In this document: one piece after another, positions 31,624 through 62,815 of the stretch
Layout of the letters: every line of letters starts with the position of its first letter
How positions within the stretch are numbered: position 1 is the stretch's first letter
Origin: an uncultured Thermoguttaceae bacterium
GTDB lineage: Bacteria; Planctomycetota; Planctomycetia; Pirellulales; Thermoguttaceae
DNA: 64,000 nucleotides
Direction of reading: 5' to 3'
NCBI GenBank assembly: GCA_937951625.1
Contig: CALFBP010000009.1
Coordinates: 20,203-84,202 of the forward strand
Program-made: the position numbers and the translations under genes
Notes under the pieces: generated by a model
What the model was told of the DNA's origin: nothing
Database searches by the model: none
Seen by the model: only the letters and a program-made list of their open reading frames with translations

Positions 31624-32667
31624 TCAATCGCCGATGGCATCCGCGGGGTCGAGGATCACATCGTCGATGCGAATCGCCTTGTGCCCCTTGAACACGCCTG
31701 GGCGGGCGCGAAACTTGGGGACCCCTTCGACCGAGACCAACAGCGGGCGGTGAATGTCTTTCTCCGTGGTGATGATGTCCCCCACGCGGAGATTGATCAG
31801 CTCGCCCGTCGAGACCCGGGTGCGGGCCAGCCGCACGCTCAATAGCACGGGCGAGCCGCGGAGGGTTCGGGCGATCTGCTCGACGTTCTGAGCCGAGCTG
31901 GCCTTTCTTGCCCAGGCCACCCAACTGTTGGACGACAGCTTCCCGCCGATTCGCTCTATCGCGTTGTAGGGGATGCACAAATTCACCATCCCCCGTGTCT
32001 CCCCCAAGGCCACCTCAAAGCTGATCACCACCACCACTTCGTTCGGTGGGACGATTTGCATGAGCTGCGGATTATGCTCGACGCGGATCACCTCCAGTTG
32101 CAGTTCCAACACGTTTTCCCAGGCGCGACGAAGTTCTTCCAAAAACAGGTTGGTGATCCTCGACACAATCCGCAGCTCGATGTCGGTCAAGGGCCTGCGC
32201 GCCAGCAGCGACGGCTCGTGCCCCCCGCCTAGCAGCCGGTCGATGATCGGGTACAAGATCGAGGGATTGATGTCCAGGATCAGGTTCCCTTCCAGCGGCT
32301 CCGCCTTGAGCAGATTGAAGCACGTGGGGTTCTCCAAGCTGAAGATGAATTCGCTGTACGTGAGCTGATCGACACTGGTCAACTTGACCTCGACCATGGT
32401 CCGCAGCATCGCCGACAGCCCCGCGGCGAAATTCCGCCCGAACCCTTCGTGCAGCGTCTGAAGCGCCCGCATCTGTTCCTTGCCGACGCGTTCGGGGCGT
32501 TTGAAGTCATAGGGGGTGATCTTCTCGCGGGGCTTGAAAGTGGCCAAGGTGGAGACGGGCTTCGGGGGCGCGGCCTCCGCGGTTGCCGCACTTTTTCCTG
32601 CCCCCATCGACGCCAGCAAACTCTCGACTTCCGCCTGGCTGAGCACGTCCTCGCTCATCGTCCTCAC
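31624..32667 (-). CDS. fliM: Flagellar motor switch protein FliM.
   Basis: 347 aa. The N-terminal CheY-P binding motif is [10 protein letters not shown]. The middle domain is [33 protein letters not shown]...LTYSEF. The C-terminus is a SpoA/FliN-like domain ([30 protein letters not shown]). Confidence 0.8.
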
Positions 32668-48239: not shown

Positions 48240-50426
48240 TCATCGGCTGGGACCTGCCGCTTGGCAGTGGCGGGCGATTTCGTCGTGCGTCAGCGCCCGA
48301 TCGAAGAGTGCCGCCTCGCAAAGTTTGCCCTCCCAGTTGAACTGGTTGTCGCCTCGGCCGCCGAGGAAGATTTCCGTGGGCCCTGTCGCAACCGGAGCGT
48401 CGGTCTGTCCTGAGATTTCCGGCGTGGGATCGCCATCGAGGTAGACCACCACCTGCCGTCCATCGCGGACTAAGGCCACATGATGCCACGTGCGGACTTG
48501 AAGCACGGTCCGGCCCACCAACATTTGCTTGGATTCATCTCCGCTGGTGAAGATCAACCGGCCAGCGGCATGGGCCTTGCCTGCGAGGCCCAACCGGTCG
48601 CCGCCCCCTCCCCCTTGACTGGCCAAGCGATGGCAGAAAAACCATCCCGTCACCGGGCGGAAGTCATGGGCCAGCCCATTCCACAGCCAAAGTTCCAAGG
48701 TGTACGCTTTTCCCAACCCGTCCCCAGGAACCCTGACGCGGCCACCGGCGAAATGGGGCGCGCGTGTCGTAGGGGCCAGGCCCGCGCGAGGCGGCCCTTC
48801 CAGCCACCGTGCGATTCCTTCTTCGTAGCAACCGGAGAAACGGCCCGTCGCGTCCACCGCGATCGACCCACTGCACTCCTGGAGCCGCCAGTAGGCGATC
48901 GGCCGCGAGGCCCAAATGGCATGGGCATAGGCGGTCTGCGGTGGTTGCATCGGTCGGCGTTTGCTGCCCGATACCTCCTCGAGCAATTCCAGCACGGCCT
49001 CTACGATCTTGGATTCCGCGGTTTTCTCCAAACAGGAGGTCTTGGCTTCCCAAGTGCTGTAGCCGCCCAGGGCGTGTTGCTCGGGCGGGGGGATATAGCC
49101 TTCGGCGCCGTTGGCCAGCTCGATGTTCATGGTGGGAACCAAGGGGCTCTGGGCCTTCAAGCGCAGGCCCGTAATCCCGTAAACCTCGCAGGGTATCGCG
49201 GCGATGCCCAGGCCGCCAACTCGCAAGGCTTGGAGCTTGAGGCTTCGCGTGGGTGGGGTCTTGCTCAACAAGACTTGTTCGCGGGCGTAGACCTCCTCGC
49301 GCGTGGTCGGAAGACGGTCGCCCAACCGCTTGGCAATCGGCTTGGCCCAGGCCAGGCGGGATTCCGGCGGCATACGCACGCCAAGCTCCAGTTCCCGCTC
49401 GCGCATGGCCAGCGGGACCCAATCGTGATAGCGAATCTTCTGGAAGGCAGCGTAGGCGACCTTCACCACGGAGGCGGCATAGCTCTTATGGTCGCCCTTC
49501 ACGGCCGGGCGACTGAAATCCATCCAATGCTGGTCGCCGGAGGTCCCCTGCGACATGATGGCCACGAAAGGCGGTTCTTGCGGATGAGGGGCGATCAGCG
49601 TCTGGATTTGCTCGCAAAACTGACCGCACCAATCGGCGGAAAGCGGTTCTACCCCCGCCCCGTAGAAGTGCATCCCAAAGTTCGCCAGCAGCGCGAGCGG
49701 ATGCCCGTCCAGCGTTTGGAGCGACAACAGAGTAAGGTCGCTATCCACCGGGCCAGCCGGCCCGATGTTGGCTGGATCGGCATACGGCGGAGTCATGAGG
49801 ATCCGCTTGCCTGGCTCGCCGAACGGCGTGGGCGGCACGCTGCCGGGCGTGCGAATCCACAACCGGCAATGCGTCAAGTCCGGCGCAGGGGCGACTGTCC
49901 AGCCGATCCGGGCCGGGGCCAGCCTCCGCTGGGCCTGGACAATCGCCTCCGCGATCCGGCCGGGGAGCCACGCCGCATATTCAGGGTCTTCGCGGCTACC
50001 GAGCGCCGCCATCACGGAAGGGGCGCTGTGCGTGTGCGTCGCCGAAATGAGCATGCGCTCGGCAGGGATCCCGGTAGTCTGCCGGGCAAGCTCCTTGGCC
50101 CGATCCAGCAACGACCGCGGCATCAGGCAGCTATCCACCACCACGATCGCCACGCGGCACGTTCCGTCGTCAAGCACCAAGCAACGGGCCGCCAGGCGAT
50201 CCATGGCGCGGGCAGCCGTGCGCTCGAGGGTGTAGCCGTTGACAATCACCGGGAACTTTGGCGGCGTGACGTCCACAGTAGCCGCCCCGGCGCGAAAGAC
50301 GTTGCTTTCAGCCGCGGTGATCGGACGAGGAACGATCAGAGCGCAAATTGCCAACACGACGCCAGCGGCAATGCTCCATGCCGGCGAAATTCCTGTTTGC
50401 TTGGGAAAGTCCGAATGCTTTGCCAT
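48240..50426 (-). CDS. Fusion of a neutral/alkaline ceramidase-like N-terminal domain with a C-terminal LamG (concanavalin-A-like) domain.
   Basis: 728 aa. The signal anchor is AWSIAAGVVLAICALIV. The segment FRAGAATVDVTPPKFPVIVNGY...RLAARCLVLDDGTCRVAIVVVDSCLM...MLISATHTHSAPS resembles the ceramidase N-terminal domain. The C-terminal motifs TLELWLWNG, TWHHVALVRDGRQVVVYLDG and GKLCEAALFDRALTHDEI are LamG-like. Confidence 0.55.
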   Translation of the reverse strand: MAKHSDFPKQTGISPAWSIAAGVVLAICALIVPRPITAAESNVFRAGAATVDVTPPKFPVIVNGYTLERTAARAMDRLAARCLVLDDGTCRVAIVVVDSCLMPRSLLDRAKELARQTTGIPAERMLISATHTHSAPSVMAALGSREDPEYAAWLPGRIAEAIVQAQRRLAPARIGWTVAPAPDLTHCRLWIRTPGSVPPTPFGEPGKRILMTPPYADPANIGPAGPVDSDLTLLSLQTLDGHPLALLANFGMHFYGAGVEPLSADWCGQFCEQIQTLIAPHPQEPPFVAIMSQGTSGDQHWMDFSRPAVKGDHKSYAASVVKVAYAAFQKIRYHDWVPLAMRERELELGVRMPPESRLAWAKPIAKRLGDRLPTTREEVYAREQVLLSKTPPTRSLKLQALRVGGLGIAAIPCEVYGITGLRLKAQSPLVPTMNIELANGAEGYIPPPEQHALGGYSTWEAKTSCLEKTAESKIVEAVLELLEEVSGSKRRPMQPPQTAYAHAIWASRPIAYWRLQECSGSIAVDATGRFSGCYEEGIARWLEGPPRAGLAPTTRAPHFAGGRVRVPGDGLGKAYTLELWLWNGLAHDFRPVTGWFFCHRLASQGGGGGDRLGLAGKAHAAGRLIFTSGDESKQMLVGRTVLQVRTWHHVALVRDGRQVVVYLDGDPTPEISGQTDAPVATGPTEIFLGGRGDNQFNWEGKLCEAALFDRALTHDEIARHCQAAGPSR

Positions 50427-50456
50427 GGCCGCTTGCTGCCAAAACTCGAAGACTTG

Positions 50457-51596
50457 TCAGGGATTCCCCGGCGGTTCCTTCTGCGGTGGGCCGAGGCAGA
50501 TGCGGAAACCGTCGCGCGAATCGGAGTAGGAGGGGCTGTGGAGGCCCAGCCGCACGGCGCAGCGGGCATTGCCCGGCACATCGAAATAATTCCCTCCGCG
50601 GCAGACCGGATGAGGGTCCTTCTCCACGAAGTGTACTTCTTCGTGCGCGCCCTGGGGATCGAAGTGGTCCAGCACGATTTCCCAAACGTTGCCGCACATG
50701 TCGGCCAACCCGAACCCGTTGCGTCCTTTCTCGCCGTAATGGTCCACGGGGGAAACAAACGCGAAGCCATCGCTCCAGGGCGCCTTGGCCAGCGGCCAAG
50801 TCTTTGTGCGGCCCGGCAGGAAGTCGATCGCCGAGATATTCAAGCGGCCCTCGCCCTCCTCCAGTTCATTGCCCCACCAGAAGAACGCGCGAGGCCGGCC
50901 GCCGCGGCAGGCATATTCCCATTCGGCCTCGGTGGGCAAGCGGTAGACCAGGCCGTTGGGCAACCGGCCGGCCTTTCGCTCGCGTTCCGTCAGCCACTTG
51001 GCGAAGGCCCGCGCATCGTTCCAGCTCACGCACACCACGGGAAAGTCATCGCGGTTGGGAAACGGCCAGTTCGGATCGCGCCAGCTTTTGCCGGGCATGG
51101 GCTTCCAGGGATGGACCACCTGGGTGGTGAAGTGATAGCCATCCCACTCGGGGTCGAAGCACTGCGTCCAACCGCCGGGCTTTTCGGCGTCGGTGACGTA
51201 GCCGCTCTCCTCGACGAACCGCCGAAACTGGCCTACGCTGACCTCGGTGCGGCCCATCCAGAGGCCATGCTTGACGCGCGTCAAGCGTGGATCGCCCTCG
51301 GGCTTCTCTCGCGAGGTTCCCGGCGTCGCCCCGCCCTCGATACCCGTGGCCCAGGCCCGCTCCTCCGCTGTGCTGCCCATCATGAATTCGCCGGGCGGAA
51401 GGTACACGACCTCCAACGTCACGCCCCCGCCGAGGTCCACTTTTCTCGCCTCGCCCTTGACGGGTTCCTTGGCCGCCGCGGCGTACGCAATGGCCAGCAT
51501 CAAAGCGTACGCGGCGGCGAAGAGGCCGTGCGGCCGCGGGGCTTGGAACACGACCTCCCCCCAAGGAGATCGGCTATTGGATGCATCGGATTTCAT
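50457..51596 (-). CDS. Formylglycine-generating-enzyme (FGE/SUMF1) family protein.
   Basis: Motifs seen are GEFMMGS, VSWNDARAFAKWL, YRLPTEAEWEYACRGG, NGFGLADMCGNVWEIV and RGGNYF. I prefer the ATG at 51596, which has GGAG 7 nt upstream. The track start at 51599 is GTG. Confidence 0.8.
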   Translation of the reverse strand: MKSDASNSRSPWGEVVFQAPRPHGLFAAAYALMLAIAYAAAAKEPVKGEARKVDLGGGVTLEVVYLPPGEFMMGSTAEERAWATGIEGGATPGTSREKPEGDPRLTRVKHGLWMGRTEVSVGQFRRFVEESGYVTDAEKPGGWTQCFDPEWDGYHFTTQVVHPWKPMPGKSWRDPNWPFPNRDDFPVVCVSWNDARAFAKWLTERERKAGRLPNGLVYRLPTEAEWEYACRGGRPRAFFWWGNELEEGEGRLNISAIDFLPGRTKTWPLAKAPWSDGFAFVSPVDHYGEKGRNGFGLADMCGNVWEIVLDHFDPQGAHEEVHFVEKDPHPVCRGGNYFDVPGNARCAVRLGLHSPSYSDSRDGFRICLGPPQKEPPGNP

Positions 51597-51623
51597 CACG
51601 TGTCTCCACGGTTTCAGGGTGCG

Positions 51624-54600
51624 TCACTTGGATTGTTGTTTCGGTTTCCTGACAATCGCCGCGCTGAAGCCCTCGGCGATGCGAAGTTCGGTAAAGGTCG
51701 CTCCGTCGCGAACCACGCTAGGCGCGGGGAACTTGGGAACCTCGCGCCCCACGTCGTCGAAGACGTGGACCTCGTGCTCCGAGTCGTCGCCCCAGCCGAA
51801 ATAACCGCTGCGGTTGGTCAGGATCCGCTCTTCCCCCACGATGTATCCCTCGCGAAGCTCGATCGGTGTGATTGGGAACATGAATTTGGTGATCGTTTCG
51901 TAGGCCGGTATGACTTGCACGTCGCTGTACCAATGCGACACGCAGCCGTAATTGAGCGCGGCCAGCATGTTGCGATAGGCGTCCTCTTGGCTGCGCTCGG
52001 TCAAATGGTCGCCCAGCGCGATCGGCGAATGGAGTTGGGCCCGCGCGCAATTGCTGATGCTGCCCGTCTCGACGAAGCGCGGGATTTTCAAGCGTGCGAT
52101 GGTCCGCGTATGCGGCTGGCCGTTGGCGATCAGGGGTCCTCGAGCGAGAATCTCGCGGGCCAATTTGAGGCGATACGGTTGCGAAAGAAGCGTTACGGAA
52201 GACTTCAGTCTGCGGATTTTCATCGTCTTCGGGTCGATGTCCGCCGAACATCCGTCCCAAGGCTCGCCGAAATGATACATGTAGGCGCTATATTCCATTT
52301 CGTCCCAATATACGCCGTCGGTCTTGATCTCGTCGAGGATGATCTCCACGTTGCGGCGCAGGGCGCGACCGAAGGCATTGGCTTCGGTGGGGAAGAAGAT
52401 GCGGTCGCCCGGCGTGCCGTAGTCGGCTTGCGAGCCGTCGCTGCGAAGCACGCGGGCATCGGCGTATTTAGTGGGAGCATCTTCCCAGGTATCCAGGAAA
52501 CAATGGAAATAGACGCACGTCTTTGCCTGAGGCGCGAGGCGGCGGACCCGCTCGACCCACCTTCGGTAGGCATCGTGGGGCACGAGTTGGAACGGCGTAC
52601 CGTGAGTATAATGGCCGTGCCACGTCCGCTCGATGGTGTAACACACCAGATTCGCGCTTTTGAAGCGGATGAAGTTGGCGAATTGCTCGTCGGACCAAGC
52701 TTCCGTGAGCCGCCCTCCACGGAGAAACGCGAAGCAATAGGGCAGAGTGAAGTTGGCGTCGAGCAGCCGGCGGGCGGCGTTGACAAAATCGAAATAGTCG
52801 GGTTGCGGCGTCGGCACGATGGCCCATTCGGCCGTGTAGCTCTTGCCCGGCTGGAGGACGAACTGGTTGTCCGCCAACCCCAATCGGCCTTCGGCGGCGT
52901 AATTGGAGACGTGGACCTGGAACTCATCGTTCAAGGGGAGCAGCCCGATGCCCGCTTTCCCCGTGACACCGAAGCTGCTGGGGTTGGCCGGTTCGGAAGA
53001 CGAACCGACCAGGCCGGCGGGCGAGAGGCCCGCCAGCCAAATCTTAACGAGCGGCGAGGCCGGCGAGACCTCATGCCGCTGCATCAGCGGCAGATTTTCC
53101 CGGCCCAAATTGCGGAACGTGTCCCGAACCACGATCGCTTCAGCCAGATGCTCCACGGTCCGCGTGTGTTCAAAGAAGCTGTTCGAGCCGCGTTCCCATT
53201 TGCCTGTGGGCGTGGAAAACCGGCTCTCGATCGTGAAGGTCTCGCCACCCGCCGCGACCTCGACCTGGGCATCGGGAAGCTCGCGGACTTTGTACTCCGT
53301 TTTCCACGGCCTTCTGGGGGCGTAAAACGGCAGCGGGCCGGTTGGCGGCCCAGCCTTTGGTTTGGGCGGTGGGGGCGGCGCGGCGAAGCGGACCCGACAG
53401 TCGGCCGCGATAAGCCAGCGCGTGACATTTGCAGCGCAAGCGTTTTCGATCACGAGTTGATTGTCCCCCTCGCGGATCAAATCGGCCACGCGAAACTCAA
53501 ATTCTCCTGTCCTCACGCCGCCAATGGCATACGACGACGAATCGGCGGCCGTGAAGTCCGGCGCATAATAGACCGAAAATCGGTCCACCGCCACCATGCG
53601 GTGGATGCGGCCATCCTTGCCCTGGATTTCCAGGGGCTTGTTCAACAGTCGCTTGCCGTCGATTGCTTTGCCATTGAGCGTCAACCTCAATGCCTGCGTG
53701 TAGCCACCGACTTTCGGGAATTCCAGTCGGGCTTTGAGTTCCAGCACGGCTTCCTTGCCCGGCGGCACCCGCCCCGTGGTGAAGGTGAAAGTCTGTTTTT
53801 CTCCCGGTTTCAATTCCGCCTTTTCGAAGACCACGGCGCCCCGGGCAATCGTCGGCTGCTGGCCGTCGGCTCCCCCGAGCACGGCATCGTTCAAACGAGT
53901 GCGGGTGATGGCCCAAGGCCGTGTGGACAGGCTGAGCAGTTTTTCCGAGCGCGGCTCAGCGCCGTCGGTGTCGAAGACGGCGACCTCGAAAGCGAGCGGC
54001 GTGCCGACGTCGGGCCATTTCACCCCAAGCACCGACCAGGGGATGGAAGCTTCGAGCGTGTAGCCCCGCTCCGATCGTTGGGCAGCCACCACCGCTTCCC
54101 CCAAGCCCTGCCCCGTCGGCTGGAAGCAGTAAACCTCCGCAGGGCAATCCAGGCTGGGATCGCCGCTTTGGCCGAAGTTCCCCGGGCTGAAGCCGATTTG
54201 AAACTGGCCGTTGCCAAAGGCGGTTCGGGCGGGGTCTTCGTCGGGAGTGGTATCGAAGAAAAGCTGGATGCAATCGCCCTTGTAAAGATTCGACCCGCGC
54301 TGGGTCTGTCGGATAACGTCGTCGGTCACATCAGCGGCCAGATACAGTCGATCCGGACGCCAGGCGAGCCATACTTTCGCGCTGAGGTCGGTCGGCGATT
54401 TCCACGCCGCGCCGCCCCACGTCGCCTGCTCGGCGCGATGGAGCCAAAACGGGTTCGGCACGTTGGCCCACTCGTCCAAACGCCCGTCGACCGCGGGCGG
54501 CGGATCGGGCTTCAAGGGAATCACCACCGCTTCGGCGGCGACAAGAGTCGTCGCCCAGCACCACAGCAGGCTGGTTGCACCGATTCTGCACATGATTCTC

Positions 54601-54635
54601 GACCACCAAAAAGTCATGGAAACCTCGCTCATCAT
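51624..54635 (-). CDS. Large secreted hypothetical protein with an N-terminal CBM9/DOMON-like carbohydrate-binding domain.
   Basis: A signal-like segment MTFWWSRIMCRIGATSLLWCWATTLVAAEA is followed by PPAVDGRLDEWANVP...VWLAWRPDRLYLAADVTDD...GDCIQLFFDT...LEASIPWSVLG...FEVAVFDTDG, which is the CBM9-like pattern. I do not recognise the remaining roughly 750 aa. The start (54635, 54632 or 54617) is uncertain, and the track start at 54815 is probably too far upstream. Confidence 0.45.
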   Translation of the reverse strand: MMSEVSMTFWWSRIMCRIGATSLLWCWATTLVAAEAVVIPLKPDPPPAVDGRLDEWANVPNPFWLHRAEQATWGGAAWKSPTDLSAKVWLAWRPDRLYLAADVTDDVIRQTQRGSNLYKGDCIQLFFDTTPDEDPARTAFGNGQFQIGFSPGNFGQSGDPSLDCPAEVYCFQPTGQGLGEAVVAAQRSERGYTLEASIPWSVLGVKWPDVGTPLAFEVAVFDTDGAEPRSEKLLSLSTRPWAITRTRLNDAVLGGADGQQPTIARGAVVFEKAELKPGEKQTFTFTTGRVPPGKEAVLELKARLEFPKVGGYTQALRLTLNGKAIDGKRLLNKPLEIQGKDGRIHRMVAVDRFSVYYAPDFTAADSSSYAIGGVRTGEFEFRVADLIREGDNQLVIENACAANVTRWLIAADCRVRFAAPPPPPKPKAGPPTGPLPFYAPRRPWKTEYKVRELPDAQVEVAAGGETFTIESRFSTPTGKWERGSNSFFEHTRTVEHLAEAIVVRDTFRNLGRENLPLMQRHEVSPASPLVKIWLAGLSPAGLVGSSSEPANPSSFGVTGKAGIGLLPLNDEFQVHVSNYAAEGRLGLADNQFVLQPGKSYTAEWAIVPTPQPDYFDFVNAARRLLDANFTLPYCFAFLRGGRLTEAWSDEQFANFIRFKSANLVCYTIERTWHGHYTHGTPFQLVPHDAYRRWVERVRRLAPQAKTCVYFHCFLDTWEDAPTKYADARVLRSDGSQADYGTPGDRIFFPTEANAFGRALRRNVEIILDEIKTDGVYWDEMEYSAYMYHFGEPWDGCSADIDPKTMKIRRLKSSVTLLSQPYRLKLAREILARGPLIANGQPHTRTIARLKIPRFVETGSISNCARAQLHSPIALGDHLTERSQEDAYRNMLAALNYGCVSHWYSDVQVIPAYETITKFMFPITPIELREGYIVGEERILTNRSGYFGWGDDSEHEVHVFDDVGREVPKFPAPSVVRDGATFTELRIAEGFSAAIVRKPKQQSK

Positions 54636-55049
54636 GGAAAGTTCGCCCCCCGTGCTCCTCTTGCGGCCGACGCGTGCGACAAATTCTTCGGCGGAACCGA
54701 CCTGTGGCAACATTCTCCGTCCTTGGGGCAGGTTCGGTGAGCGAAGCTCGTCGGGAGGTGTGGAAGCCAAGGCGAGCGACAACCACAGCCCAAGTGTACC
54801 GCCTCCTTCTGCCAATGCTCAAGCACGTGAGGAATTTTGTCATCTGGGGCTTGGCTGCGCGTGCAAGGGCGTTTTGCCGAAAAAAACAGGGCGCAGTTTT
54901 CGCTCATTTCCAGGGGCAACGGCATTGGCACCCGACCGGTTGGGCGAGTACCATGGCGCGTTGTGGCCGCAACTGGCACCTGCGACTTTTCCGCTGCATG
55001 CCCCTTTGGGGCAGGGGTTTGAGGCCAACGCAAGTTCTGGAGCAGAGGC

Positions 55050-58000
55050 ATGTCCGTTTGGACTCCTTCGTCGTTCAGGCCGCCCAAGGCGATGTTGCTT
55101 GCGGCGCTCGCCTTGGTGGGAATCGGGCTTTCGCTCGCCGCCTATGCGATGTTCGCAGCCCAACAGCGGAAGCTTCTTGAATCTCAACTCGAAGCCGACG
55201 CGGAGCAGCGGCATCGGGCGATCGAGCGGCGTCTGCGATCCGATGTGACCTCGGTGTACCAGCTTTCACCGTTCCTTGGGGAACAGGGGCCAGGCACGCG
55301 GGAGGATTTTCACCGCCTGGCCGAGGGAATCTTGGGAACCAACCAAGATCTCGCAGCCCTGATGTGGATCCCGCGGGTCCGAGCAAGCCACCGCAACGAG
55401 CACGAGGCGGCGGCTCGGGCACAGGGATTGACCGATTATCGGATCCGCCCTTGGGCGTCCGCGGGCGAGCCCAAAAGCGACAAGCTTGCGAAGCCGCTTG
55501 ATTATTCCTTACCCATTTATTTCGCCGAACCGCAGGATCGCCAAGCTGGTAAACGAGGAATCGACTTGGCCACGGCGCCGCTCCTTGCCGCCGAGCTTGC
55601 CGAGGTGGTGGCAATGGGGCGACCAGGGCAAATGGGTCGGCTCCTGGTGACGCGGCCCATGCCTTGGGGCGACGATCACCACGGATACACGGCAATCCTT
55701 GTCTTCCGGCCGATGTTCGACAACGCCTTACCCTCGGATACCGACCAGGACCGCCGCGAGAAATTGGTGGGCTATCTGGCGGTCGTGATTCGCGTCGACG
55801 CCATGCTGGAAGGGGCGCTGTATATTTTCACTCCGGAGATCCACGTGGCGATGTTCGACGACGCGGCTCCCAACGGGCGGGAGTTCCTCTGCGGATTCGA
55901 CGCAGACGCCGGGCGAGCGTTCTTTTCTCCACCGGTTTCCGGAGTGACATTTGGCGGCAACGGCCCATGGCTCCGCATGGCGATGGAGGTCCCTGGCCGC
56001 ACTTGGTCCATTGAGTTCCATCCCGCCAGCAGCTACTTGACCCGGCATCGGGGACCATTGCCGATGGTGGTCTTGGTTTTCGGCTTGTTGTTGACGGCGC
56101 TGGTGACCACCTACGCGACCACGCTGATGAGTCGAGCGGCCGGGGTCGAAAAACTCGTGGAGCAGCGGACCGCCGAACTCGCTCACGAACGATTCCTCCT
56201 CGACACGCTCCTCAACCATTCGCCCGACTACATCTATTTCAAGGACGCGGAAAGCCGCTTCCTCCGCATCAGCCGGGCCTTGGCGAGCTACTTCGGCTTG
56301 AACGATCCGGCCGAGGCCGTGGGCAGGACGGATTTCGATTTCTTTGAGGCCCATCGGGCCCGACAGTATCGAGCGGATGAGGAGCAAATCATGCGAACGG
56401 GCCTGCCCATCGTCAACAAGGAAGAGGAGCAGCCTTGGCCCGACGGCCGCGTGACCTGGCTGTCCACCACCAAGGTCCCGTTGTTCGATGCGCAGGGCCG
56501 GGTGATCGGCACGTTCGGCATCTCGCGGGACGTGACCGCGCAGAAGCGGGCCGCCGAAGAGGTCCGTCAAGCCCGCGACGCCGCCGAGGCCGCCAGCCGT
56601 GCCAAGAGCGATTTTTTGGCGAACATGAGCCACGAGATCCGCACGCCGATGAATGCCATTATCGGCATGACCGAACTGGTGCTCGACACCAAGCTTTCCG
56701 CCGTGCAGCGAGATTACCTGACCATGGTCCAGGCCTCGGCCGAATCGCTCTTGGCCATTTTGAACGACGTGCTGGATTTCTCCAAGGTCGAAGTAGGCAA
56801 ACTCGAGCTCCATCCCACGTTATTCGATCTCGAGGAAGAACTGAGCAAGGCCACCAAGTCGCTGGCCACGAAAGCCCACGCCAAGGGCTTGGAGCTGGCT
56901 TGCCGTATCCGCCCCGGCACGCCTTCGCAGTTTGTGGGCGACGCCACCCGGCTCCGGCAAATCCTAGTCAACCTCTTGAGCAACGCGATCAAGTTCACGG
57001 AGCATGGCGAGGTGCTGGTCGAGGTCGACAGTAGTCCGGCGGGCGAGGGCAATACCGGCGAGGAGGTCATGCTCCATATCGCGGTGAGCGACACGGGAAT
57101 CGGCATCCCGCCCGATAAGCTCCATAGGATCTTCGACGCCTTCGAGCAGGTCGACACGTCGACCACGCGGAGATTCGGCGGCGTGGGGCTCGGGCTGGCG
57201 ATTTGCTCGCGCCTGGTGGAGTTGATGGGTGGGAAGATTTGGGTAGAAAGCGAAGTCGGGCGGGGGAGCACGTTCCATGCGACCGCTCGGCTGCGGCTTG
57301 CGAGGGACGGCGCTACCCAGCCTGCCGCCCTGCCCGACGCGATCCGAGGCGTCCGCATCCTTATCGTCGATGACAATGCCACCAACCGGCGGATCCTCGA
57401 GGAGATGCTCGCCAATTGGGGGATGAGTTCGGTTTCGGCGCCGCACGGAATCGCGGCGATCGAGGCGCTTCGCGAAGCCCGGCGCTCGGGCCGCCCCTTC
57501 CAGCTCGTGCTCACCGATGCGCACATGCCGGAACTTGATGGATTCCAACTCGCGGAACAGGTCAAGGCCGATTCGCAGTTGGGCAGTACCGTCGTCATGA
57601 TGCTCACGTCGGGCGACCGGCCGGGCGACGTGGCCCGCTGCGAGGAAATCGGCGTGGCCGCTTACTTGCTCAAACCGATTCATCAGTCGGAGCTTTTGGA
57701 CAGCATCTTGGTGGCCCTCGGCGCCTCGACCGCCCAACAGGAGTCGTCCCCGGCTCTGGCCGAGGCCGGACCGCTCCCCCCTTTACGCATTCTCTTGGCC
57801 GAGGACAGCTTGGTGAATCAGAAACTGGCGGTGGGCTTGTTGAGCAGGCACGGCCACTCGGTCATCGTGGCCAATGACGGCCAGGAGGCCGTGGCCGCCC
57901 TCGCTCAACACGAGGTGGATTTGGTGTTGATGGACGTGCAGATGCCCGTCATGGACGGCTTCGAGGCCACGGCCGCGATCCGCGCCAGAGAGAAGCGGTC

Positions 58001-58166
58001 GGGCAAGCACGTCCCCATCCTCGCCATGACCGCCCACGCCCTGAAAGGCGACCGCGAGCGCTGCCTCGAAGCCGGCATGGACGACTATATCGCCAAACCG
58101 ATCTCGGCCAATCAGCTTTTGGCCAAAATGCGCGAGCTGGCGTGCCGATTCGCCCTGCCCCGCTGA
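55050..58166 (+). CDS. Hybrid sensor histidine kinase with the order TM-CHASE-TM-PAS-HisKA-HATPase-REC-REC and no Hpt. It is a paralog of 40320..44063.
   Basis: 1038 aa. The H-box is [22 protein letters not shown]. The ATPase has [14 protein letters not shown] and [11 protein letters not shown]. The receivers have [12 protein letters not shown]...[12 protein letters not shown] and [12 protein letters not shown]...[13 protein letters not shown]. The protein ends shortly after the second receiver. Confidence 0.9.
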
Positions 58167-58339: not shown

Positions 58340-59476
58340 TCACTTCGAGGACGACTCATTCACGAGTGCATTGGCCAGCGCGAGTCCCTCGTCGACGCTG
58401 GCCACGCATCCATCAGCGCCCCAAGCCCTCACCAGGCTCTGGCAACCAGCCGCCCCGCGACCGCCCACGAGGATCTTGACCTTCGGCCCATGCCGGCTTG
58501 CCCGAATGGCGGCGATCGCCTGCTCCAGCGTGGGCAGTTGCGTCAACAGCGTTACGGACAAGCCAACCACGTCGGGCTCGAAGAAATCCACCGCCTGGCC
58601 GAGGTCTTCCGCGGGCACATTGGCCCCCAGGGAGATCACTTTCCAACCCTCGGCCTCGAACACGTCGGCCACGGCTTGAACGCCAAGGTCATGCTGGTTT
58701 CCGGCCACCGCGGCAATCAGCAGCCTTTTGCCCTCGGGCCGCTTGGCGACCAATCGCGCGTTAAGCTCGGCCATGACCGCACGCGTGGTGGCCGTGGCGA
58801 AATGTTCCTCCGCCACGTTGATTTCATCGAGCACCCACATCCGACCCAACTCTTCTTGAGCCGGCAAAAGGACCTTTCGATAGATTTCGAGAGGGGGGAC
58901 GCCCTGATCCACGGCATCGAGCACCAGCCGTCGCGCCCTGTGCCGATCGCCCTCCAGGATCGCCACCAAATACGCCGCGGCGAGCCGCCCCTCCGGCGTG
59001 TCTGCCGACAGTCGCGGCGTCATGCCCGGCGGATCCCCATGGAACTCTTGCAGGGCGCGATCCAAATACGCGATTGCCAAGGGCGCCAAGGCAGCGGGAA
59101 TCTCCTCCGCCAAGACGCTCCGCAAAGCTTCGAGGCGTGCGCGAAGAGCCCTGGGCGGAACGCCACGCGACTCCAAAGCGGCGCGAATCCAACGGACTTG
59201 TTCGACGAAACGCTCCGGCGTTCCCGTCAAGACCGCGACCGACAGCTCCTCAAGGCGGGCAGTCAAAAGGTGGTGCCACTGCTGGAACTGAGTTGCGGCA
59301 GGGTCGGATTCGCCGCTCATGTGTTCAACAACCGATGCCTCCGCCGTAGCTCCCGAATCGCTTGGGTTCCCCAGACTTTCCCCTGGCTCGGACACCTTTT
59401 CCAAAGCGTAGGCGGCCAACGCCCTCGCCCCGTTTTTCAGTATTTTGGCAAGCGTCTGCTCGGGCTGAGCCATCAT
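58340..59476 (-). CDS. Cobalamin (B12)-binding-domain protein of the CarH/LitR photoreceptor type that lacks a recognisable DNA-binding domain.
   Basis: 378 aa. The four-helix-bundle cap motif W-x9-E-H is RMWVLDEINVAEEH. The Rossmann B12-binding region is LLIAAVAGNQHDLG...VISLGANVP...VVGLSVTLL...KILVGGRG. The N-terminal region of about 165 aa is helical, Ala/Leu/Arg-rich and unassigned. The ATG overlaps the sigma-factor stop as ATGA. Confidence 0.65.
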   Translation of the reverse strand: MMAQPEQTLAKILKNGARALAAYALEKVSEPGESLGNPSDSGATAEASVVEHMSGESDPAATQFQQWHHLLTARLEELSVAVLTGTPERFVEQVRWIRAALESRGVPPRALRARLEALRSVLAEEIPAALAPLAIAYLDRALQEFHGDPPGMTPRLSADTPEGRLAAAYLVAILEGDRHRARRLVLDAVDQGVPPLEIYRKVLLPAQEELGRMWVLDEINVAEEHFATATTRAVMAELNARLVAKRPEGKRLLIAAVAGNQHDLGVQAVADVFEAEGWKVISLGANVPAEDLGQAVDFFEPDVVGLSVTLLTQLPTLEQAIAAIRASRHGPKVKILVGGRGAAGCQSLVRAWGADGCVASVDEGLALANALVNESSSK

Positions 59477-60087
59477 GAGGAAGCCTCCTCTTCGGACGGC
59501 GCGCCGCTTTTGCTGGCGACGCTCTTTTTCGATGCGACCTCCAGCAATTGCCGCAACCGAATCAGTCCGCGACGTGAATGCGTTTTCACCGTTCCCAGCG
59601 GAAGCCGCGTGGCTTCGGCGATCTCTTGCTGCGAGAGCCCCTCATCAAAAGAAAGTTCCAGGACGCGGCGTTGCTCAGGCCGGAGTTGCGCAAACAAACT
59701 TCGTACTCGGCGGCCTTCTTCCAGTGTCTCCAGCCGCTCCGACTCCGACGGCATCGTAGCCGCCGGCTCGGCGACGATCGACGTTGCCTCGGGCCGCCGC
59801 GTCCGCCGCCGGTTCCGGTCGATCAGCCGCCGTCGCGCCAACATGGCTACGAAGGTACTCTCCGCGGCCACGGAAGGGTCGAATCGCCCCGCGTGCCGCC
59901 ATAACTCGATGAAAATCTCTTGCACGGCGTCTTCGGCATCGGCGTGGTCATTCGTGAACCGACGCGCCATCGACCACACCAGTCCGCGATACTGCTCCAT
60001 GCATTCATCGACGGCGCGAGAGTCGCCCTCCGCGATCCGTTCTAGAATCGTCCGCGGTGTGTTTCCTATTTCGCTTAACGAGAGCAT
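59473..60087 (-). CDS. ECF-type RNA polymerase sigma-70 family factor.
   Basis: 204 aa. Region 2 is YRGLVWSMARRFTNDHADAEDAVQEIFIELWRHAGRFD...TFVAMLARRRLIDRNRRR. Region 4 is LSFDEGLSQQEIAEATRLPLGTVKTHSRRGLIRLRQLL. Confidence 0.85.
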   Translation of the reverse strand: MLSLSEIGNTPRTILERIAEGDSRAVDECMEQYRGLVWSMARRFTNDHADAEDAVQEIFIELWRHAGRFDPSVAAESTFVAMLARRRLIDRNRRRTRRPEATSIVAEPAATMPSESERLETLEEGRRVRSLFAQLRPEQRRVLELSFDEGLSQQEIAEATRLPLGTVKTHSRRGLIRLRQLLEVASKKSVASKSGAPSEEEASS

Positions 60088-60169
60088 CGAAGTCCACTAG
60101 GGAGCACGTCGGCAGTCTAATTGCGAGTTTGGCACGCCGCGGGCCAAAAGGCAAGCCACTCTTGGCAAA

Positions 60170-60194
60170 ACGCCGTAAGGCCCCCGAAGGTTCC
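60170..60194 (-). promoter_or_regulatory. Candidate ECF-type promoter (GGAAC-N17-CGT) upstream of the sigma gene.
   Basis: The minus strand reads GGAACCTTCGGGGGCCTTACGGCGTTTT. GGAAC lies at 60194-60190 and CGT at 60172-60170, about 80-105 nt upstream of the sigma start codon. This is a pattern match only. Confidence 0.3.
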
Positions 60195-60496
60195 CCTATC
60201 GTACACGATCCCAAAACGAACATTGCCCCTCCCATCTCTTCGAGCAAAAACAACCCCTGCGGGTGTCACTCCGGAATGGAGAGAGATGCCTTGAGAAAAA
60301 TGGCCTCGCTTTGGGGACATTGGGACGACGGTCGCACCGCTGGTTCCGATTTTTTCCGACCGAAGCAGTGGAGCCGGTGTCAAGAGCCAGTCGATTCCCG
60401 TACAATACGTCTCTGTCTCCCGGGTTTTGAAGACATCGCGATGACCTTGTGCTCTCTGGAGACACCAAAAAACGCCCGATTGCGAGGAGGCGTGCC

Positions 60497-61972
60497 ATGC
60501 GACCGGCTTTCTGGCCGATGCTGATGCTTTTGCTTTGTTGGAATTGTTGGGACTACGCCTCGGCGGAGGCCGCAGAGGGAGTCCAAGGACGCAAGCTTAA
60601 GGTCAGCGAAAATCGCCGATTCCTGATTTATGAAGACGGCACGCCGTTTTTCTACCTCGGGGATACGGCCTGGGAATTGTTCCATCGTCTCAACCGGGAG
60701 GAGGCGGACCGCTATCTGGAGGATCGCGCGAAGAAGGGGTTTACGGTCATTCAAGCCGTGGCCCTCGCCGAATTGGATGGCTTGAACACGCCCAACGCTT
60801 ACGGCCATCGTCCCTTGATCGGAAACGACCCGACCAAGCCCGACGTCAAGGAAGGGCCGCAGAACGACTATTGGGACCACGTCGATTACATTGTCGACAA
60901 GGCCAACGCCTTGGGGTTGTTTGTGGGCTTTCTGCCGACATGGGGCGACAAATGGAACAAGAAATGGGGCGTGGGAGGCTGTTCGTTCACCCCGCAAAGT
61001 GCCGAGGTCTATGGCGAGTGGATTGGCCGCCGCTACAAGGACAAGGCCATCATCTGGATCCTTGGCGGCGACCGGCCGGTGGAAAACGACGAGCACCGTA
61101 AAATCATCCGGGCCATGGCGAAGGGGTTGAGCCGAGGCGACGGCGGCACGCACCTCAAGACGTTTCATCCGGTAGGTGGGGAAAGTTCCTCGACGTGGTG
61201 GCATCACGACGAGTGGCTCGACTTCAACATGCGTCAGAACGGACATGTCGCTGATTTCACCGGCCGGTATGAGCGGACTCGGGCGGATTACGACCGTGTA
61301 CCGATTAAACCGGTGCTGGACGGCGAGCCGATCTACGAGGACCATCCGATCGGCTTCGACGCCAAAAAGAACGGCTATGCGACCGCAGCCGACGTGCGGA
61401 GGCCGCTTTATTGGGACTTGTTCAGCGGGGCATGTGGCCACACCTACGGGAATCACGCGGTGTGGCAAATGTGTGACCCGCGCCGCTTTGCGCCAGTCAA
61501 TCACCCGTTGATGCCCTGGGGCGAGGCGATTCACCAGCCCGGCGCCTCGCAAATGCAACATGCCAAGAATCTTTTGCTCTCGCGGCCCTTCCTTTCACGC
61601 ATTCCCGACGATTCCGTGGTTGCGCCCGACAACGTCCCAGCCAGCGTGCCTGGGGCGGGCCGGTATCGTTTCGTGGCCACGCGCGACGCTTCCGGGAGTT
61701 ACGCCATGGTGTACGTGCCGGTCGGGCGACCATTTCAAGTCCACATGAACAAAATCCAGGGGGCGACGGTCAAGGCCTGGTGGTTCAATCCCCGAACCGG
61801 CAAAGCCGAGTTGATCGGCGAGTTTCCCAACCGTGGCACGCGACGTTTCATGCCCCCAGAGCCGGGCGAGTTGCTCGATTGGGTGTTAGTATTGGACGAC
61901 GCCGCGAAGCAGTTCCCCCCGCCCGGAAGCGTTGCAGACAGCACGTATTCCTCCCCCGGTCTAGCGCAGTAA
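60497..61972 (+). CDS. GH140/DUF4038-type glycoside hydrolase with a C-terminal PF12904-like beta-sandwich.
   Basis: The signal is [25 protein letters not shown]. Following segments are [48 protein letters not shown], and then [12 protein letters not shown]...[14 protein letters not shown]...WWFNPRTG. The ATG at 60497 lies 8 nt after GAGGAGG. Confidence 0.6.
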
Positions 61973-62278
61973 CGTGACACTGGCCGAATCCCCCTCATCA
62001 TAGGGGTACTCATCCACGGTTTTCGACACCGAGGGGTCAGGCCAAGGCCGAAGGCTTCAAGCCGGGAAAGTTGTTCTCGCCCCTTTTTTTCCTCCGTACG
62101 TGCGGATCGGATGTGCTCACAATAGGGGCCCAGCTTTTTTTATTTAATCCAGATGTAACTGAATTATTTTCTGAAATCTTGAATCCTACGCCGACCGGCC
62201 CGCGAAATGTCTGGCAGGTTCGACACACGGCGGGCCAGTGAGGCTCGCGGAGACAAGCTGGGAAAAGGAGATTTGGAG

Positions 62279-62815
62279 ATGAAGACGCTGGTAGTTGTTG
62301 GTTTGGCATGTGGGCTGACCGTTGTCACCCTGAGCACTGTTTCGGCCGGGCGACGGTGCTCGTACGTAACCGAGAGTCACTCTACGGCCGCAGTCGAGTG
62401 CGATGCTAAAGACATCGTGGACACCGCGGTCGCGGCTGGCAAGTTCAAGACCCTCGCTGCGGCCTTGCAGGCGGCGGAATTGGTGGAAACATTGAAGGGC
62501 GAGGGGCCGTTCACCGTGTTCGCTCCCACCGACGAGGCATTCAATAAACTGCCCGCCGGCACCTTAGAGGATCTGCTCAAGCCAGAGAACAAAGGCAAAC
62601 TGACAAAAATTCTGACCTATCATGTCGTGCCTGGAAAAGTGATGGCGGCCGACGTGGTCAAGCTGTCGAAGGCGAAAACCGTCGAGGGATCCGAAGTCAA
62701 GATTCACGTCCATGATGGCAAGGTGAAGGTGGATAATGCGAACGTGATCGCTACCGACGTGGCAGCCTCGAATGGGGTCATTCACGTAATTGACGCCGTG
62801 ATCTTGCCGCAATAG
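62279..62815 (+). CDS. Secreted fasciclin (FAS1) domain protein.
   Basis: The signal is [27 protein letters not shown]1 motifs are [33 protein letters not shown] and [14 protein letters not shown]. The ATG at 62279 follows GGAAAAGGAG. Confidence 0.85.

What the first reader, a model, noticed from the sequence alone, without database searches (positions are those of the whole stretch)
58340..60194. An ECF sigma factor translationally coupled to a CarH-type B12-binding protein with no DNA-binding domain, a candidate cobalamin- or light-gated anti-sigma factor
Seen in the sequence:
- The ECF sigma gene (59473-60087, minus strand) ends in a TGA that overlaps the ATG of the next gene (ATGA at 59473-59476). 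The two are almost certainly co-translated.
- The downstream 378-aa protein carries the W-x9-E-H motif (RMWVLDEINVAEEH). A Rossmann B12-binding region follows directly, with the lower-ligand His in AGNQHDLG, then VGLSVTLL and ILVGGRG.
- It has no MerR-type helix-turn-helix, no HxxxCxxC zinc anti-sigma motif and no TM helix. Instead it has an unassigned helical N-terminal region of about 165 aa.
- A GGAAC-N17-CGT ECF-like promoter candidate lies upstream of the pair.

Established knowledge:
- W-x9-EH together with the ExHxxG...SxL...GG module marks AdoCbl photoreceptors of the CarH/LitR family, which normally carry a MerR DNA-binding domain.
- ECF sigma factors are usually encoded next to their cognate anti-sigma factor.

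Inference: the B12 module may take the anti-sigma position, so that sigma release would depend on cobalamin photochemistry or cobalamin availability. I know of no described ECF/anti-sigma pair of this kind, but I cannot search to confirm that it is new.
Basis: partly seen in the sequence, partly recalled or inferred. Interest (0 to 1): 0.7.

Follow-up and report, generated by a model that had tools for sequence, protein, structure and literature searches.

The report
SigK sigma factor paired with B12 photoreceptor
A stress-type sigma factor of the SigK family is encoded overlapping a vitamin-B12 light-sensor-type protein in place of its usual anti-sigma factor RskA, a pairing conserved in dozens of planctomycete genomes, which suggests that light or B12 is the long-sought signal for this sigma family.

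Summary
The genes and motifs are real. A 204-aa ECF sigma (59473-60087, minus strand) overlaps by ATGA a 378-aa protein that carries a complete light-sensing B12 signature.

Three points in the finding change:
- The "unassigned" N-terminal region is a photoglobin domain. The protein belongs to the known photoglobin-B12 (photocobilin) family, with the domain order reversed and the biliverdin-ligand Asp lost.
- The sigma is a cysteine-less SigK type, whose normal anti-sigma is RskA. All 43 close relatives keep sigma directly upstream of the B12 gene. Thirteen retain a truncated, soluble RskA domain between the two genes, and it was lost repeatedly, including in the window's lineage. Outgroups have full-length RskA, with the B12 gene divergent.
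- The proposed GGAAC-N17-CGT promoter is a chance match. The real regulon motif is TG(A/C)ATCC-N16-CGAA, found upstream of fasciclin, SOUL and DUF2867 genes, and of the window's fasciclin gene at 62180.

Best reading (about 0.45): the B12 protein is a light- or cobalamin-gated regulator that holds SigK by protein-protein contact. No interaction could be tested here. I found no published link between photocobilins and ECF sigma factors. The signal for SigK is an open question, and SigK-regulon fasciclin genes are light-induced in M. kansasii.

The parts
59473..60087 (-). SigK-type ECF sigma factor, 204 aa, sigma2 + sigma4 only, cysteine-less (V142 and L182 at the positions of Mtb SigK C133 and C183)
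   Evidence: Pfam r2/r4_2. NCBIfam best hits are PRK12519 and the SigK subfamily PRK09646, both below cut-off. PDB best hits are RpoE 2q1z E=2e-18 and Mtb SigK 4nqw E=5e-16, with the alignment shown. Orthologues lie in fasciclin-sigK-rskA cassettes.
59473..59476 (-). ATGA overlap of the sigma stop codon and the B12-protein start codon (translational coupling)
   Evidence: Read directly in the sequence. The start is supported by alignment of N-termini across homologues.
58340..59476 (-). Stand-alone photoglobin-B12 protein, 378 aa (photocobilin architecture, globin domain first)
   Evidence: AF2 model pLDDT 87, pTM 0.81.
59042..59476 (-). Photoglobin (phycobiliprotein-like globin) domain, residues ~1-145, with a window-lineage disordered insert at residues 31-58. 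The bilin-ligand Asp is replaced by L70. W96 corresponds to SasPcob W296.
   Evidence: Profile vs PDB: SasPcob E=3e-10, AbPcob E=1.5e-5. AF2 of the domain alone gives pLDDT 85.7. Foldseek hits are allophycocyanin, ApcE, 8j2w and globin-coupled sensors, TM 0.55-0.64.
58763..58978 (-). Four-helix-bundle cap (B12-binding_2, residues 167-238) with G211-R-M-W214 and E224-H225
   Evidence: Pfam. Signature elements GxxW and EH are invariant. The signature is defined in PMC11796333.
58400..58726 (-). Rossmann B12-binding domain (residues 251-359) with G259-N-Q-H262 (lower axial His) and G284-A-N-V-P288
   Evidence: Pfam. GxxH and GxxxP are conserved. The closest folds are photoreceptor CBDs 8jbt, 8j2w and CarH.
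60126..60154 (-). Candidate housekeeping-type promoter of the sigma-B12 operon: TTGCCT-N17-CAAACT. It aligns column for column with the conserved TTGACC-N17-TAGACT of sister loci.
   Evidence: Alignment A3 of sigma upstream regions. It falls below the threshold of the consensus scanner. This is inferred, not shown.
62180..62206 (+). SigK-type promoter TGAATCC-N16-CGAA upstream of the fasciclin gene
   Evidence: The motif was found de novo and mapped. The strict form gives 57 hits in 472 kb of related loci against ~1 expected.
62207..62815 (+). Fasciclin-domain protein (Mpt83/Mpt70-like), the conserved SigK regulon member. The true start is probably M25 (62279), followed by a signal peptide.
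   Evidence: Pfam Fasciclin E=1.2e-42. Conserved next to the pair in 36 fetched loci plus the window. The mpt83-sigK-rskA cassette is described in PMC7509140.

Best explanation
The locus is a derived SigK module. It consists of a cysteine-less SigK-type ECF sigma factor and, overlapping its stop codon, a stand-alone photoglobin-B12 protein that keeps every residue of the AdoCbl light-sensing signature but has lost the biliverdin-ligand Asp. The proposed mechanism follows. Sigma and the B12 protein are made together, apparently from a housekeeping-type promoter. With AdoCbl bound in the dark, the B12 protein holds sigma inactive by direct protein-protein contact, probably through its globin/B12 hub. 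In relatives this happens together with a truncated soluble RskA anti-sigma domain. In this lineage it happens in place of that domain. Photolysis of the Co-C bond (or absence of cobalamin) changes the conformation or oligomeric state of the B12 protein. Sigma is then released and transcribes genes behind TG(A/C)ATCC-N16-CGAA promoters: the fasciclin gene here, and also SOUL-family and NAD-binding/DUF2867 genes in relatives. SHOWN: gene identities, synteny, repeated RskA loss, the promoter motif and its targets, conservation of the light signature, and loss of the bilin ligand. INFERRED: binding to sigma, its sign (inhibition) and the nature of the signal.
For: (1) Synteny: 43/43 close relatives have sigma immediately upstream on the same strand. 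(2) The truncated RskA gene is scattered across the tree and was lost several times independently, while sigma-B12 adjacency was never lost. (3) In the window's clade the operon has a conserved sigma70-like promoter rather than the SigK motif, so sigma is probably made constitutively and needs post-translational control. The only co-encoded candidate is the B12 protein. (4) Cysteine-less SigK is highly active on its own and is inhibited by an 81-aa RskA fragment in Nocardia (PMC7509140). An RskA-less, cysteine-less SigK therefore needs another brake. (5) The light-responsive CBD signature GxxW/EH/GxxH/GxxxP is fully conserved, and the closest folds are photoreceptor CBDs. (6) Stand-alone photocobilins regulate partner proteins through protein-protein interaction in a light-dependent way (PMC10979010). 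(7) The bilin-ligand Asp is absent from every protein of the sigma-operon clade (41 loci tabulated plus the window). It is kept in all 5 outgroup proteins, four of them encoded outside the operon, which suggests the globin domain was repurposed. (8) Mirror-tree: r(sigma, B12 protein)=0.85 against 0.21 and 0.27 with the co-located fasciclin. Sigma tracks the globin domain more than the B12 module. (9) SigK-regulon fasciclin genes are light-induced in M. kansasii (PMC9861118).
Against: The protein has no anti-sigma domain by sequence, profile or fold. In outgroups RskA is the anti-sigma and the B12 gene is a separately transcribed regulon member, so it may be an output rather than a regulator. 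Thirteen loci still keep RskA-N, so the B12 protein may act through it. Only 64 kb of the genome was searched for an orphan RskA. Mirror-tree correlations are not independent tests, and fasciclin is a poor phylogenetic control. Many of the MAGs come from digesters, sediments or soil, where light may be scarce.
Confidence: 0.45

Rival explanations
1. The B12 protein is the sensor for the RskA anti-sigma domain rather than for sigma. It acts as an anti-anti-sigma or co-anti-sigma that binds or stabilises the truncated, sensor-less RskA-N. In the window's lineage RskA-N is either encoded elsewhere in the genome, or has been lost so that the B12 protein is left without that function.
For: RskA-N sits between sigma and the B12 gene in 13 loci, with the sigma/RskA-N overlap typical of sigma/anti-sigma pairs. 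A soluble 83-aa RskA-N has no sensor domain of its own. The ancestral state pairs full-length RskA with a neighbouring B12 gene.
Against: RskA-N was lost repeatedly, yet the B12 gene stayed glued to sigma in all 30 RskA-less loci. No RskA-like sequence is in the window. There is no profile similarity or known interaction between the two.
Confidence: 0.2
2. The B12 protein is only a member of the SigK regulon or operon. It would be a photoreceptor whose partners are other proteins (for example kinases or enzymes), and sigma would merely control or share its expression.
For: In L045-L048, L050 and L052 the gene has its own SigK-type promoter and is not in the sigma operon. Photoglobin-B12 proteins associate with many different signalling proteins (PMC8717448). 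A CHASE-PAS hybrid kinase lies convergent in the window.
Against: The kinase is not conserved next to the pair. Operonic position directly after sigma, often overlapping it, is retained in 43 loci. In the window's clade the operon is not driven by the SigK motif. Sigma and B12-protein distances co-vary tightly.
Confidence: 0.2
3. The signal is cobalamin status (presence, or the type of upper ligand) rather than light. The protein would couple SigK activity to B12 availability.
For: Many source MAGs are from anaerobic reactors, sediments and soil. AerR-type B12 proteins respond to the cobalamin form (own knowledge). The invariant Asn replaces the usual E/D two residues before the His ligand.
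Against: The W-x9-EH adenosyl cap and the whole light-responsive signature, which distinguish photoreceptor CBDs from enzymatic ones, are invariant. The closest solved relatives are all photoreceptors. SigK-regulon fasciclin genes respond to light in M. kansasii.
Confidence: 0.15
4. It is a corrinoid methyl-carrier protein (MtbC/MtgC-like), as some databases name its homologues. On this reading its position next to sigma would have no regulatory meaning.
For: JGI names such as 'methanogenic corrinoid protein MtbC1'. NCBIfam MtgC hit at 77 bits.
Against: The scores are far below the family cut-offs (77 vs 370). No methyltransferase neighbours are present. The photoreceptor signature and a fused photoglobin domain are present.
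Confidence: 0.02

Closest known systems
Photocobilins / photoglobin-B12 proteins (SasPcob 8J2W/8J2X, AbPcob 8J2Y; Zhang et al. 2024, PMC10979010; Schneider et al. 2022, PMC8717448)
   Same: Same three modules: photoglobin, four-helix cap and Rossmann B12 domain. The AdoCbl light signature is the same. It is a stand-alone protein that would signal through protein-protein interaction. Both domain orders are reported for the family.
   Different: The biliverdin-ligand Asp (SasPcob D270) is replaced by L/V/W/C throughout the sigma-linked clade, so bilin binding is doubtful. The conserved partner is an ECF sigma factor, which neither paper reports.
SigK-RskA-Mpt83/Mpt70 cassette (M. tuberculosis, Yersinia, Nocardia; Veyrier et al. 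2020, PMC7509140)
   Same: SigK-like sigma, fasciclin regulon gene with a conserved promoter, and RskA (full-length or truncated to ~81-94 aa) in related loci. It belongs to the cysteine-less SigK class, which is known to come with a truncated or absent RskA.
   Different: A B12 photoreceptor-type gene is added to the cassette. In the window's lineage it occupies the RskA position and RskA is gone.
CarH / LitR AdoCbl photoreceptor repressors
   Same: W-x9-EH cap, His-on B12 binding and the closest CBD fold.
   Different: There is no MerR DNA-binding domain. The output would be a sigma factor rather than operator DNA. The bis-His residue (TtCarH H132) is absent: V/L/Q at residue 215.
AerR/PpaA-CrtJ/PpsR (B12-binding antirepressor)
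   Same: A B12-domain protein without a DNA-binding domain that controls a transcription factor through protein contact.
   Different: Only weak similarity (7te2, E=2e-4). The partner there is a repressor, not a sigma factor, and there is no photoglobin domain.
Light or singlet-oxygen ECF pairs RpoE-ChrR and CarQ-CarR; LitR->LitS; YtvA/RsbR in the sigmaB stressosome (own knowledge, except RpoE similarity)
   Same: Light-linked control of an alternative sigma factor. RpoE is the best PDB match of this sigma. RsbR carries a non-haem globin sensor domain.
   Different: Those systems sense light indirectly (singlet oxygen), transcriptionally (LitR) or through partner-switching kinases. None uses a B12 photoreceptor encoded in the anti-sigma position.

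Membership tests
Photoglobin-B12 (photocobilin) family | B12-binding_2 four-helix cap plus Rossmann B12-binding domain | tested here: met
   Pfam PF02607 E=1.4e-16 and PF02310 E=7.6e-22. Foldseek matches 8j2w, 8j2y and 8jbt.
Photoglobin-B12 (photocobilin) family | Fused photoglobin (phycobiliprotein-like globin) domain | tested here: met
   Profile vs SasPcob globin E=3e-10 and AbPcob E=1.5e-5. The domain model matches allophycocyanin, ApcE and 8j2w, TM 0.55-0.64.
Photoglobin-B12 (photocobilin) family | Light-responsive CBD signature GxxW, EH, GxxH, GxxxP (PMC11796333) | tested here: met
   G211RMW214, E224H225, G259NQH262 and G284ANVP288 are conserved across the family.
Photoglobin-B12 (photocobilin) family | Bilin-ligand Asp on globin helix 3 (SasPcob D270 / photoglobin D49) | tested here: not met
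   The aligned position is L70 in the window and L/V/W/C in every tabulated sigma-operon locus. It is Asp only in the outgroup L050-L054.
Photoglobin-B12 (photocobilin) family | Binds AdoCbl (and biliverdin) and is photoconverted | not testable with these tools
   Needs UV-vis spectroscopy of purified protein.
CarH/LitR photoreceptor repressors | N-terminal MerR-type DNA-binding domain | tested here: not met
   No MerR hit in Pfam. The NCBIfam CarH hit covers only profile positions 78-254 at 64 bits against a cut-off of 400.
CarH/LitR photoreceptor repressors | W-x9-EH and lower-ligand His | tested here: met
   W214, E224, H225 and H262 are invariant.
Class I anti-sigma factors (RskA/ChrR/RsrA-type ASD) | Anti-sigma domain recognisable by sequence, profile or fold | tested here: not met
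   No Pfam or NCBIfam hit for residues 1-169. hhalign against the RskA-N profile gives probability 0.3%. No anti-sigma folds appear in Foldseek.
Class I anti-sigma factors (RskA/ChrR/RsrA-type ASD) | Encoded directly downstream of, and co-transcribed with, the cognate ECF sigma | tested here: met
   ATGA overlap. 43/43 syntenic loci.
Class I anti-sigma factors (RskA/ChrR/RsrA-type ASD) | Binds sigma2/sigma4 and blocks RNA polymerase binding | not testable with these tools
SigK-type ECF sigma (ECF18/19) | Sigma2 + sigma4 architecture with sequence similarity to SigK | tested here: inconclusive
   4nqw SigK E=5e-16, but RpoE 2q1z scores slightly better. NCBIfam SigK subfamily scores 117 bits against a cut-off of 226. 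No ECF-group HMMs were available.
SigK-type ECF sigma (ECF18/19) | Conserved fasciclin(mpt83)-sigK-rskA cassette with a shared promoter | tested here: met
   Fasciclin is in 36 loci plus the window. RskA_C-containing RskA follows sigma in L050/L052. Truncated RskA is in 13 loci. The promoter motif lies upstream of fasciclin. In the window itself RskA is absent.
SigK-type ECF sigma (ECF18/19) | Regulatory cysteine pair (Mtb C133/C183) | tested here: not met
   V142 and L182 align to them, and the sigma has a single Cys (C29). This places it in the cysteine-less subclass described in PMC7509140.

The most novel reading that the evidence does not exclude
A B12 photoreceptor has replaced RskA as the anti-sigma factor of SigK. 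The AdoCbl-bound photoglobin-B12 protein would sequester sigma directly in the dark, using a globin domain that gave up its bilin, and release it on photolysis. That would be the first photoreceptor acting as an anti-sigma factor. It would also point to light as the unknown natural signal of the SigK regulon, which includes the mycobacterial antigens MPT70/MPT83.
Probability: 0.35. Interest if true: 0.82.

Novelty: new variant of a known kind. Interest (0 to 1): 0.66.

Why it matters
There are two open threads, and this locus joins them.

First, stand-alone photocobilins and photoglobin-B12 proteins were characterised in 2022-2024, but their natural partners are unknown. The authors state that none of the loci has been studied and that the function of the stand-alone proteins is unclear.

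Second, the signal that activates SigK-RskA is explicitly described as unknown after about 20 years of work. This is the system that controls the tuberculosis antigens MPT70 and MPT83.

A conserved, often overlapping SigK/B12-photoreceptor operon gives both fields a concrete, cheap experiment: sigma, the B12 protein, AdoCbl, light and a defined promoter in E. coli. If the interaction is direct, it would also provide a compact green-light-controlled sigma/anti-sigma switch for synthetic biology.

Tried and rejected
Rejected. It gives 14 chance matches in the window and has no conservation in orthologous loci.
- **N-terminal helix as a hidden anti-sigma helix.** The conserved ARALAGYAA resembles the 'LxAYxxGEL' helix 1 of anti-sigma domains. 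Rejected, because it aligns with helix 1 of the AbPcob globin domain, there is no profile relation to RskA-N, and the domain has a globin fold.
- **Natural fusions as Rosetta-stone evidence.** The long homologues P0025, P0030 and P0052 are frameshifted or mis-called ORFs, not fusions.
- **Full-length fold search for the N-terminal domain.** The B12 module dominated the hits, so the domain was folded and searched alone.
- **RskA in the window.** Only one weak low-complexity tblastn hit, at 46691-46954 (E=0.015), was found, and there was no hit with the RskA-N HMM. Treated as absent.
- **Second strict SigK-motif hit at 31977(-).** It lies inside the fliM coding sequence and is treated as chance.
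- **Published SigK binding-site consensus (Veyrier 2008).** The paper is not held in the library, so the de novo motif could not be compared with it.
- **Supplementary tables of the ECF classification paper.** These are not held either.
Full report
**1. What is in the window**

The minus strand carries a 204-aa ORF at 59473-60087 and a 378-aa ORF at 58340-59476, and their stop and start codons overlap in ATGA.
- The first ORF is an ECF sigma factor. It has sigma2 and sigma4 only: Pfam Sigma70_r2 E=2.8e-19 and Sigma70_r4_2 E=7e-13.
- The second ORF has B12-binding_2 (residues 167-238) and B12-binding (residues 251-359).
- W214, E224, H225, N260, H262, D263 and G265 are invariant in 24 diverse homologues.
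- There is no MerR domain, no HxxxCxxC motif and no TM-like segment. A genuine RskA TM helix served as positive control.

Flanking genes are a convergent CHASE-PAS hybrid histidine kinase (55050-58166) and, divergent from sigma, an apiosidase-like glycosidase (60449-61972) followed by a fasciclin gene (62207-62815).

**2. The N-terminal region is a photoglobin domain**

A family profile matched the solved "cobalamin-binding proteins" 8j2w/8j2x twice: the B12 module matched their N-terminal part, and the family's N-terminal region matched their C-terminal part.
- These structures are the photocobilins SasPcob and AbPcob, a B12 photoreceptor module fused to a biliverdin-binding globin or "photoglobin" domain (PMC10979010).
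- The photoglobin family is reported with the globin either before or after the B12 domains (PMC8717448).
- With the N-terminal region alone, the profile hits SasPcob at E=3e-10. It hits AbPcob at E=1.5e-5 over profile positions 15-99, which include the first helix.
- AlphaFold2 models are confident. The full protein gives pLDDT 87 and pTM 0.81, and the domain alone gives pLDDT 85.7.
- The isolated domain matches allophycocyanins, ApcE, 8j2w and globin-coupled sensors at TM 0.55-0.64. No anti-sigma fold appears among the hits.

So the protein belongs to a described family, and the "unassigned helical region" is not a cryptic anti-sigma domain.

**3. Light signature kept, bilin ligand lost**

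The published signature that separates light-responsive B12 domains from enzymatic ones is GxxW, EH, GxxH, GxxxP (PMC11796333). The protein has G211RMW214, E224H225, G259NQH262 and G284ANVP288, and these are conserved across the family. The nearest solved folds of the B12 module are all photoreceptors.

The key biliverdin ligand of SasPcob is Asp270, which is His in the weak binder AbPcob. It aligns with L70 in the window.
- In every tabulated locus where the gene follows a sigma in the operon clade (41 loci plus the window), the residue is L, V, W or C and never Asp.
- In the five outgroup loci it is Asp. These are L050 and L052-L054, where the gene is not in the sigma operon, and L051.

W96, the equivalent of SasPcob W296 that touches the corrin, is kept.

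**4. The sigma is SigK-type and its normal partner is RskA**

Synteny. A scan of one genome per species returned 61 loci. All 43 close, full-length relatives are Planctomycetota MAGs. Each has an orthologue of the window's sigma (52-75% identity) directly upstream on the same strand.

Neighbours. A fasciclin gene is conserved beside the pair in 36 loci plus the window. A SOUL-family gene is present in about 19 loci and an NAD-binding/DUF2867 gene in about 12.

Truncated RskA. In 13 of the 43 loci a conserved 83-94 aa ORF lies between sigma and the B12 gene.
- One copy hits the N-terminus of NCBIfam "putative anti-sigmaE protein" at E=6e-5.
- The profile of this ORF also hits the N-terminus of an RskA-like ORF in L049.
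- In the outgroup loci L050 and L052, sigma is followed by a full-length RskA with a TM helix and the Pfam RskA_C domain (E=1.8e-14). There the B12 gene is divergent.
- The small ORF is therefore a truncated, soluble RskA anti-sigma domain.

Agreement with published SigK work (PMC7509140).
- SigK proteins that lack the C133/C183 pair often have a truncated RskA (81 aa in Nocardia, still inhibitory) or none, and are highly active alone.
- The window's sigma aligns to Mtb SigK (4nqw, E=5e-16) with V142 and L182 at the cysteine positions. Its best PDB hit is the singlet-oxygen sigma RpoE.

**5. Evolutionary order**

An unbootstrapped NJ tree of sigma plus B12 protein interleaves RskA-N-containing loci with sister lineages that lack it. 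L032, which has RskA-N, branches next to the window's clade, which lacks it. The simplest reading is a three-step series:
- fasciclin-sigK-rskA with a neighbouring B12 gene;
- then sigK, truncated rskA and the B12 gene in one operon;
- then repeated loss of rskA, at least four or five times, with sigma-B12 adjacency never lost.

The window represents the last stage. No RskA-like sequence is present in its 64 kb.

**6. Promoters**

De novo two-block counting found TGAATCC-N15-GCGAA upstream of fasciclin genes.

The core TG(A/C)ATCC-N15-17-CGAA occurs 57 times in 472 kb of loci, against about 1 expected. It precedes:
- fasciclin genes;
- SOUL genes;
- a DUF2867 gene (L009);
- the B12 gene itself, in loci without an adjacent sigma (L045-L048, L050, L052).

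In the window it lies at 62180-62206 before the fasciclin gene. A second hit, at 31977, is inside fliM and is probably chance.

In the window's own clade the sigma-B12 operon is preceded instead by a conserved sigma70-like TTGACC-N17-TAGACT. The window's version is TTGCCT-N17-CAAACT at 60154-60126, which is too weak for the consensus scanner. This suggests constitutive co-expression, and therefore a need for post-translational control of sigma.

**7. Mechanism: what is inferred**

The best-supported model is that the B12 protein is the signal-sensing regulator of SigK and acts by protein-protein contact. In the dark, with AdoCbl bound, it inhibits sigma. Photolysis of AdoCbl, or lack of cobalamin, relieves the inhibition.

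Support:
- invariant synteny despite repeated RskA loss;
- the known high activity of cysteine-less SigK;
- the demonstrated ability of stand-alone photocobilins to regulate partners through light-dependent protein-protein interaction;
- loss of the bilin ligand exactly in the sigma-operon clade;
- a mirror-tree signal: r=0.85 for sigma against the B12 protein, versus 0.21 and 0.27 with fasciclin, and strongest for the globin domain;
- light induction of SigK-regulon fasciclin genes in M. kansasii.

Against:
- no interaction could be tested;
- the protein has no anti-sigma domain;
- in outgroups it looks like a regulon member, with RskA doing the anti-sigma job.

Rivals:
- it acts through RskA-N;
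- it is merely an output of the regulon;
- it senses cobalamin rather than light.

**8. Novelty**

Three things are already known: the protein family, the SigK-RskA-fasciclin cassette, and truncated RskA with cysteine-less SigK. The new element is the conserved coupling of a B12 photoreceptor-type protein to an ECF sigma, ending with it in the anti-sigma position.

Six literature searches and eight papers turned up no description of this. The photoglobin paper mentions sigma factors only in the SpoIIE/sigmaF context. I file it as a new variant of known kinds, of good interest because it gives a direct experiment for two open questions: the partners of stand-alone photocobilins, and the signal for SigK.

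Noticed in passing
L001-L012, L016, L018, L020, L030, L034, L037 (e.g. L012:5400-6065, minus strand): A SOUL haem-binding-family gene (Pfam PF04832, E=1.7e-10) is a conserved neighbour and carries the SigK-type promoter. This links a tetrapyrrole-binding protein to a regulon whose sensor has a bilin-type globin domain. It is absent from the window.
   Followed up: partly
L009:3056 (minus strand); L001, L004, L005, L007-L009, L022, L025, L033, L034: An NAD(P)-binding + DUF2867 gene recurs near the pair, and in L009 it has the TGAATCC-N16-CGAA motif upstream. It is probably another regulon member of unknown function.
   Followed up: partly
L045:3888, L046-L048:3799 (Chromatiales/Gammaproteobacteria MAGs): Distant photoglobin-B12 genes with no sigma within 4 kb still have a TGAATCC-N16-CGAA motif 110-200 bp upstream. 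The link to a SigK-like regulon therefore extends beyond Planctomycetota.
   Followed up: partly
window 60449-61972 (+): An apiosidase-like glycoside hydrolase (PF13204, E=6e-121, plus Collagen_bind_2) is inserted between sigma and the fasciclin gene. In most relatives those two genes are adjacent.
   Followed up: no
window 55050-58166 (+): A 1038-aa CHASE-PAS-HisKA-HATPase hybrid kinase with two receiver domains lies convergent to the B12 gene. It is not conserved next to the pair in other loci.
   Followed up: partly
window 31977-31950 (minus strand): A second strict match to the SigK-type motif (TGCATCC-N17-CGAA) lies inside the fliM coding sequence (31624-32667, Pfam FliM E=1.8e-64). It is probably chance, but an internal promoter was not excluded.
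   Followed up: partly
window 48480-54740 (+) vs 51624-54815 (-): A 2086-aa ORF on the plus strand overlaps a 1063-aa ORF on the minus strand. In this GC-rich DNA the very long plus-strand ORF looks like a spurious shadow ORF. Neither was analysed.
   Followed up: no
window residues 31-58 of the B12 protein (about 59303-59386): The window's lineage (also P0002 and P0004) has a ~22-aa low-confidence, Ser/Ala/Glu-rich insert between globin helices 1 and 2 that other family members lack.
   Followed up: no
L031 (record titled Desulfovibrio sp. UBA6121); P0105 (named Patescibacteria): Typical planctomycete-type fasciclin-sigma-B12 loci sit in bins assigned to unrelated phyla. The likely causes are mis-binning or recent transfer.
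   Followed up: no
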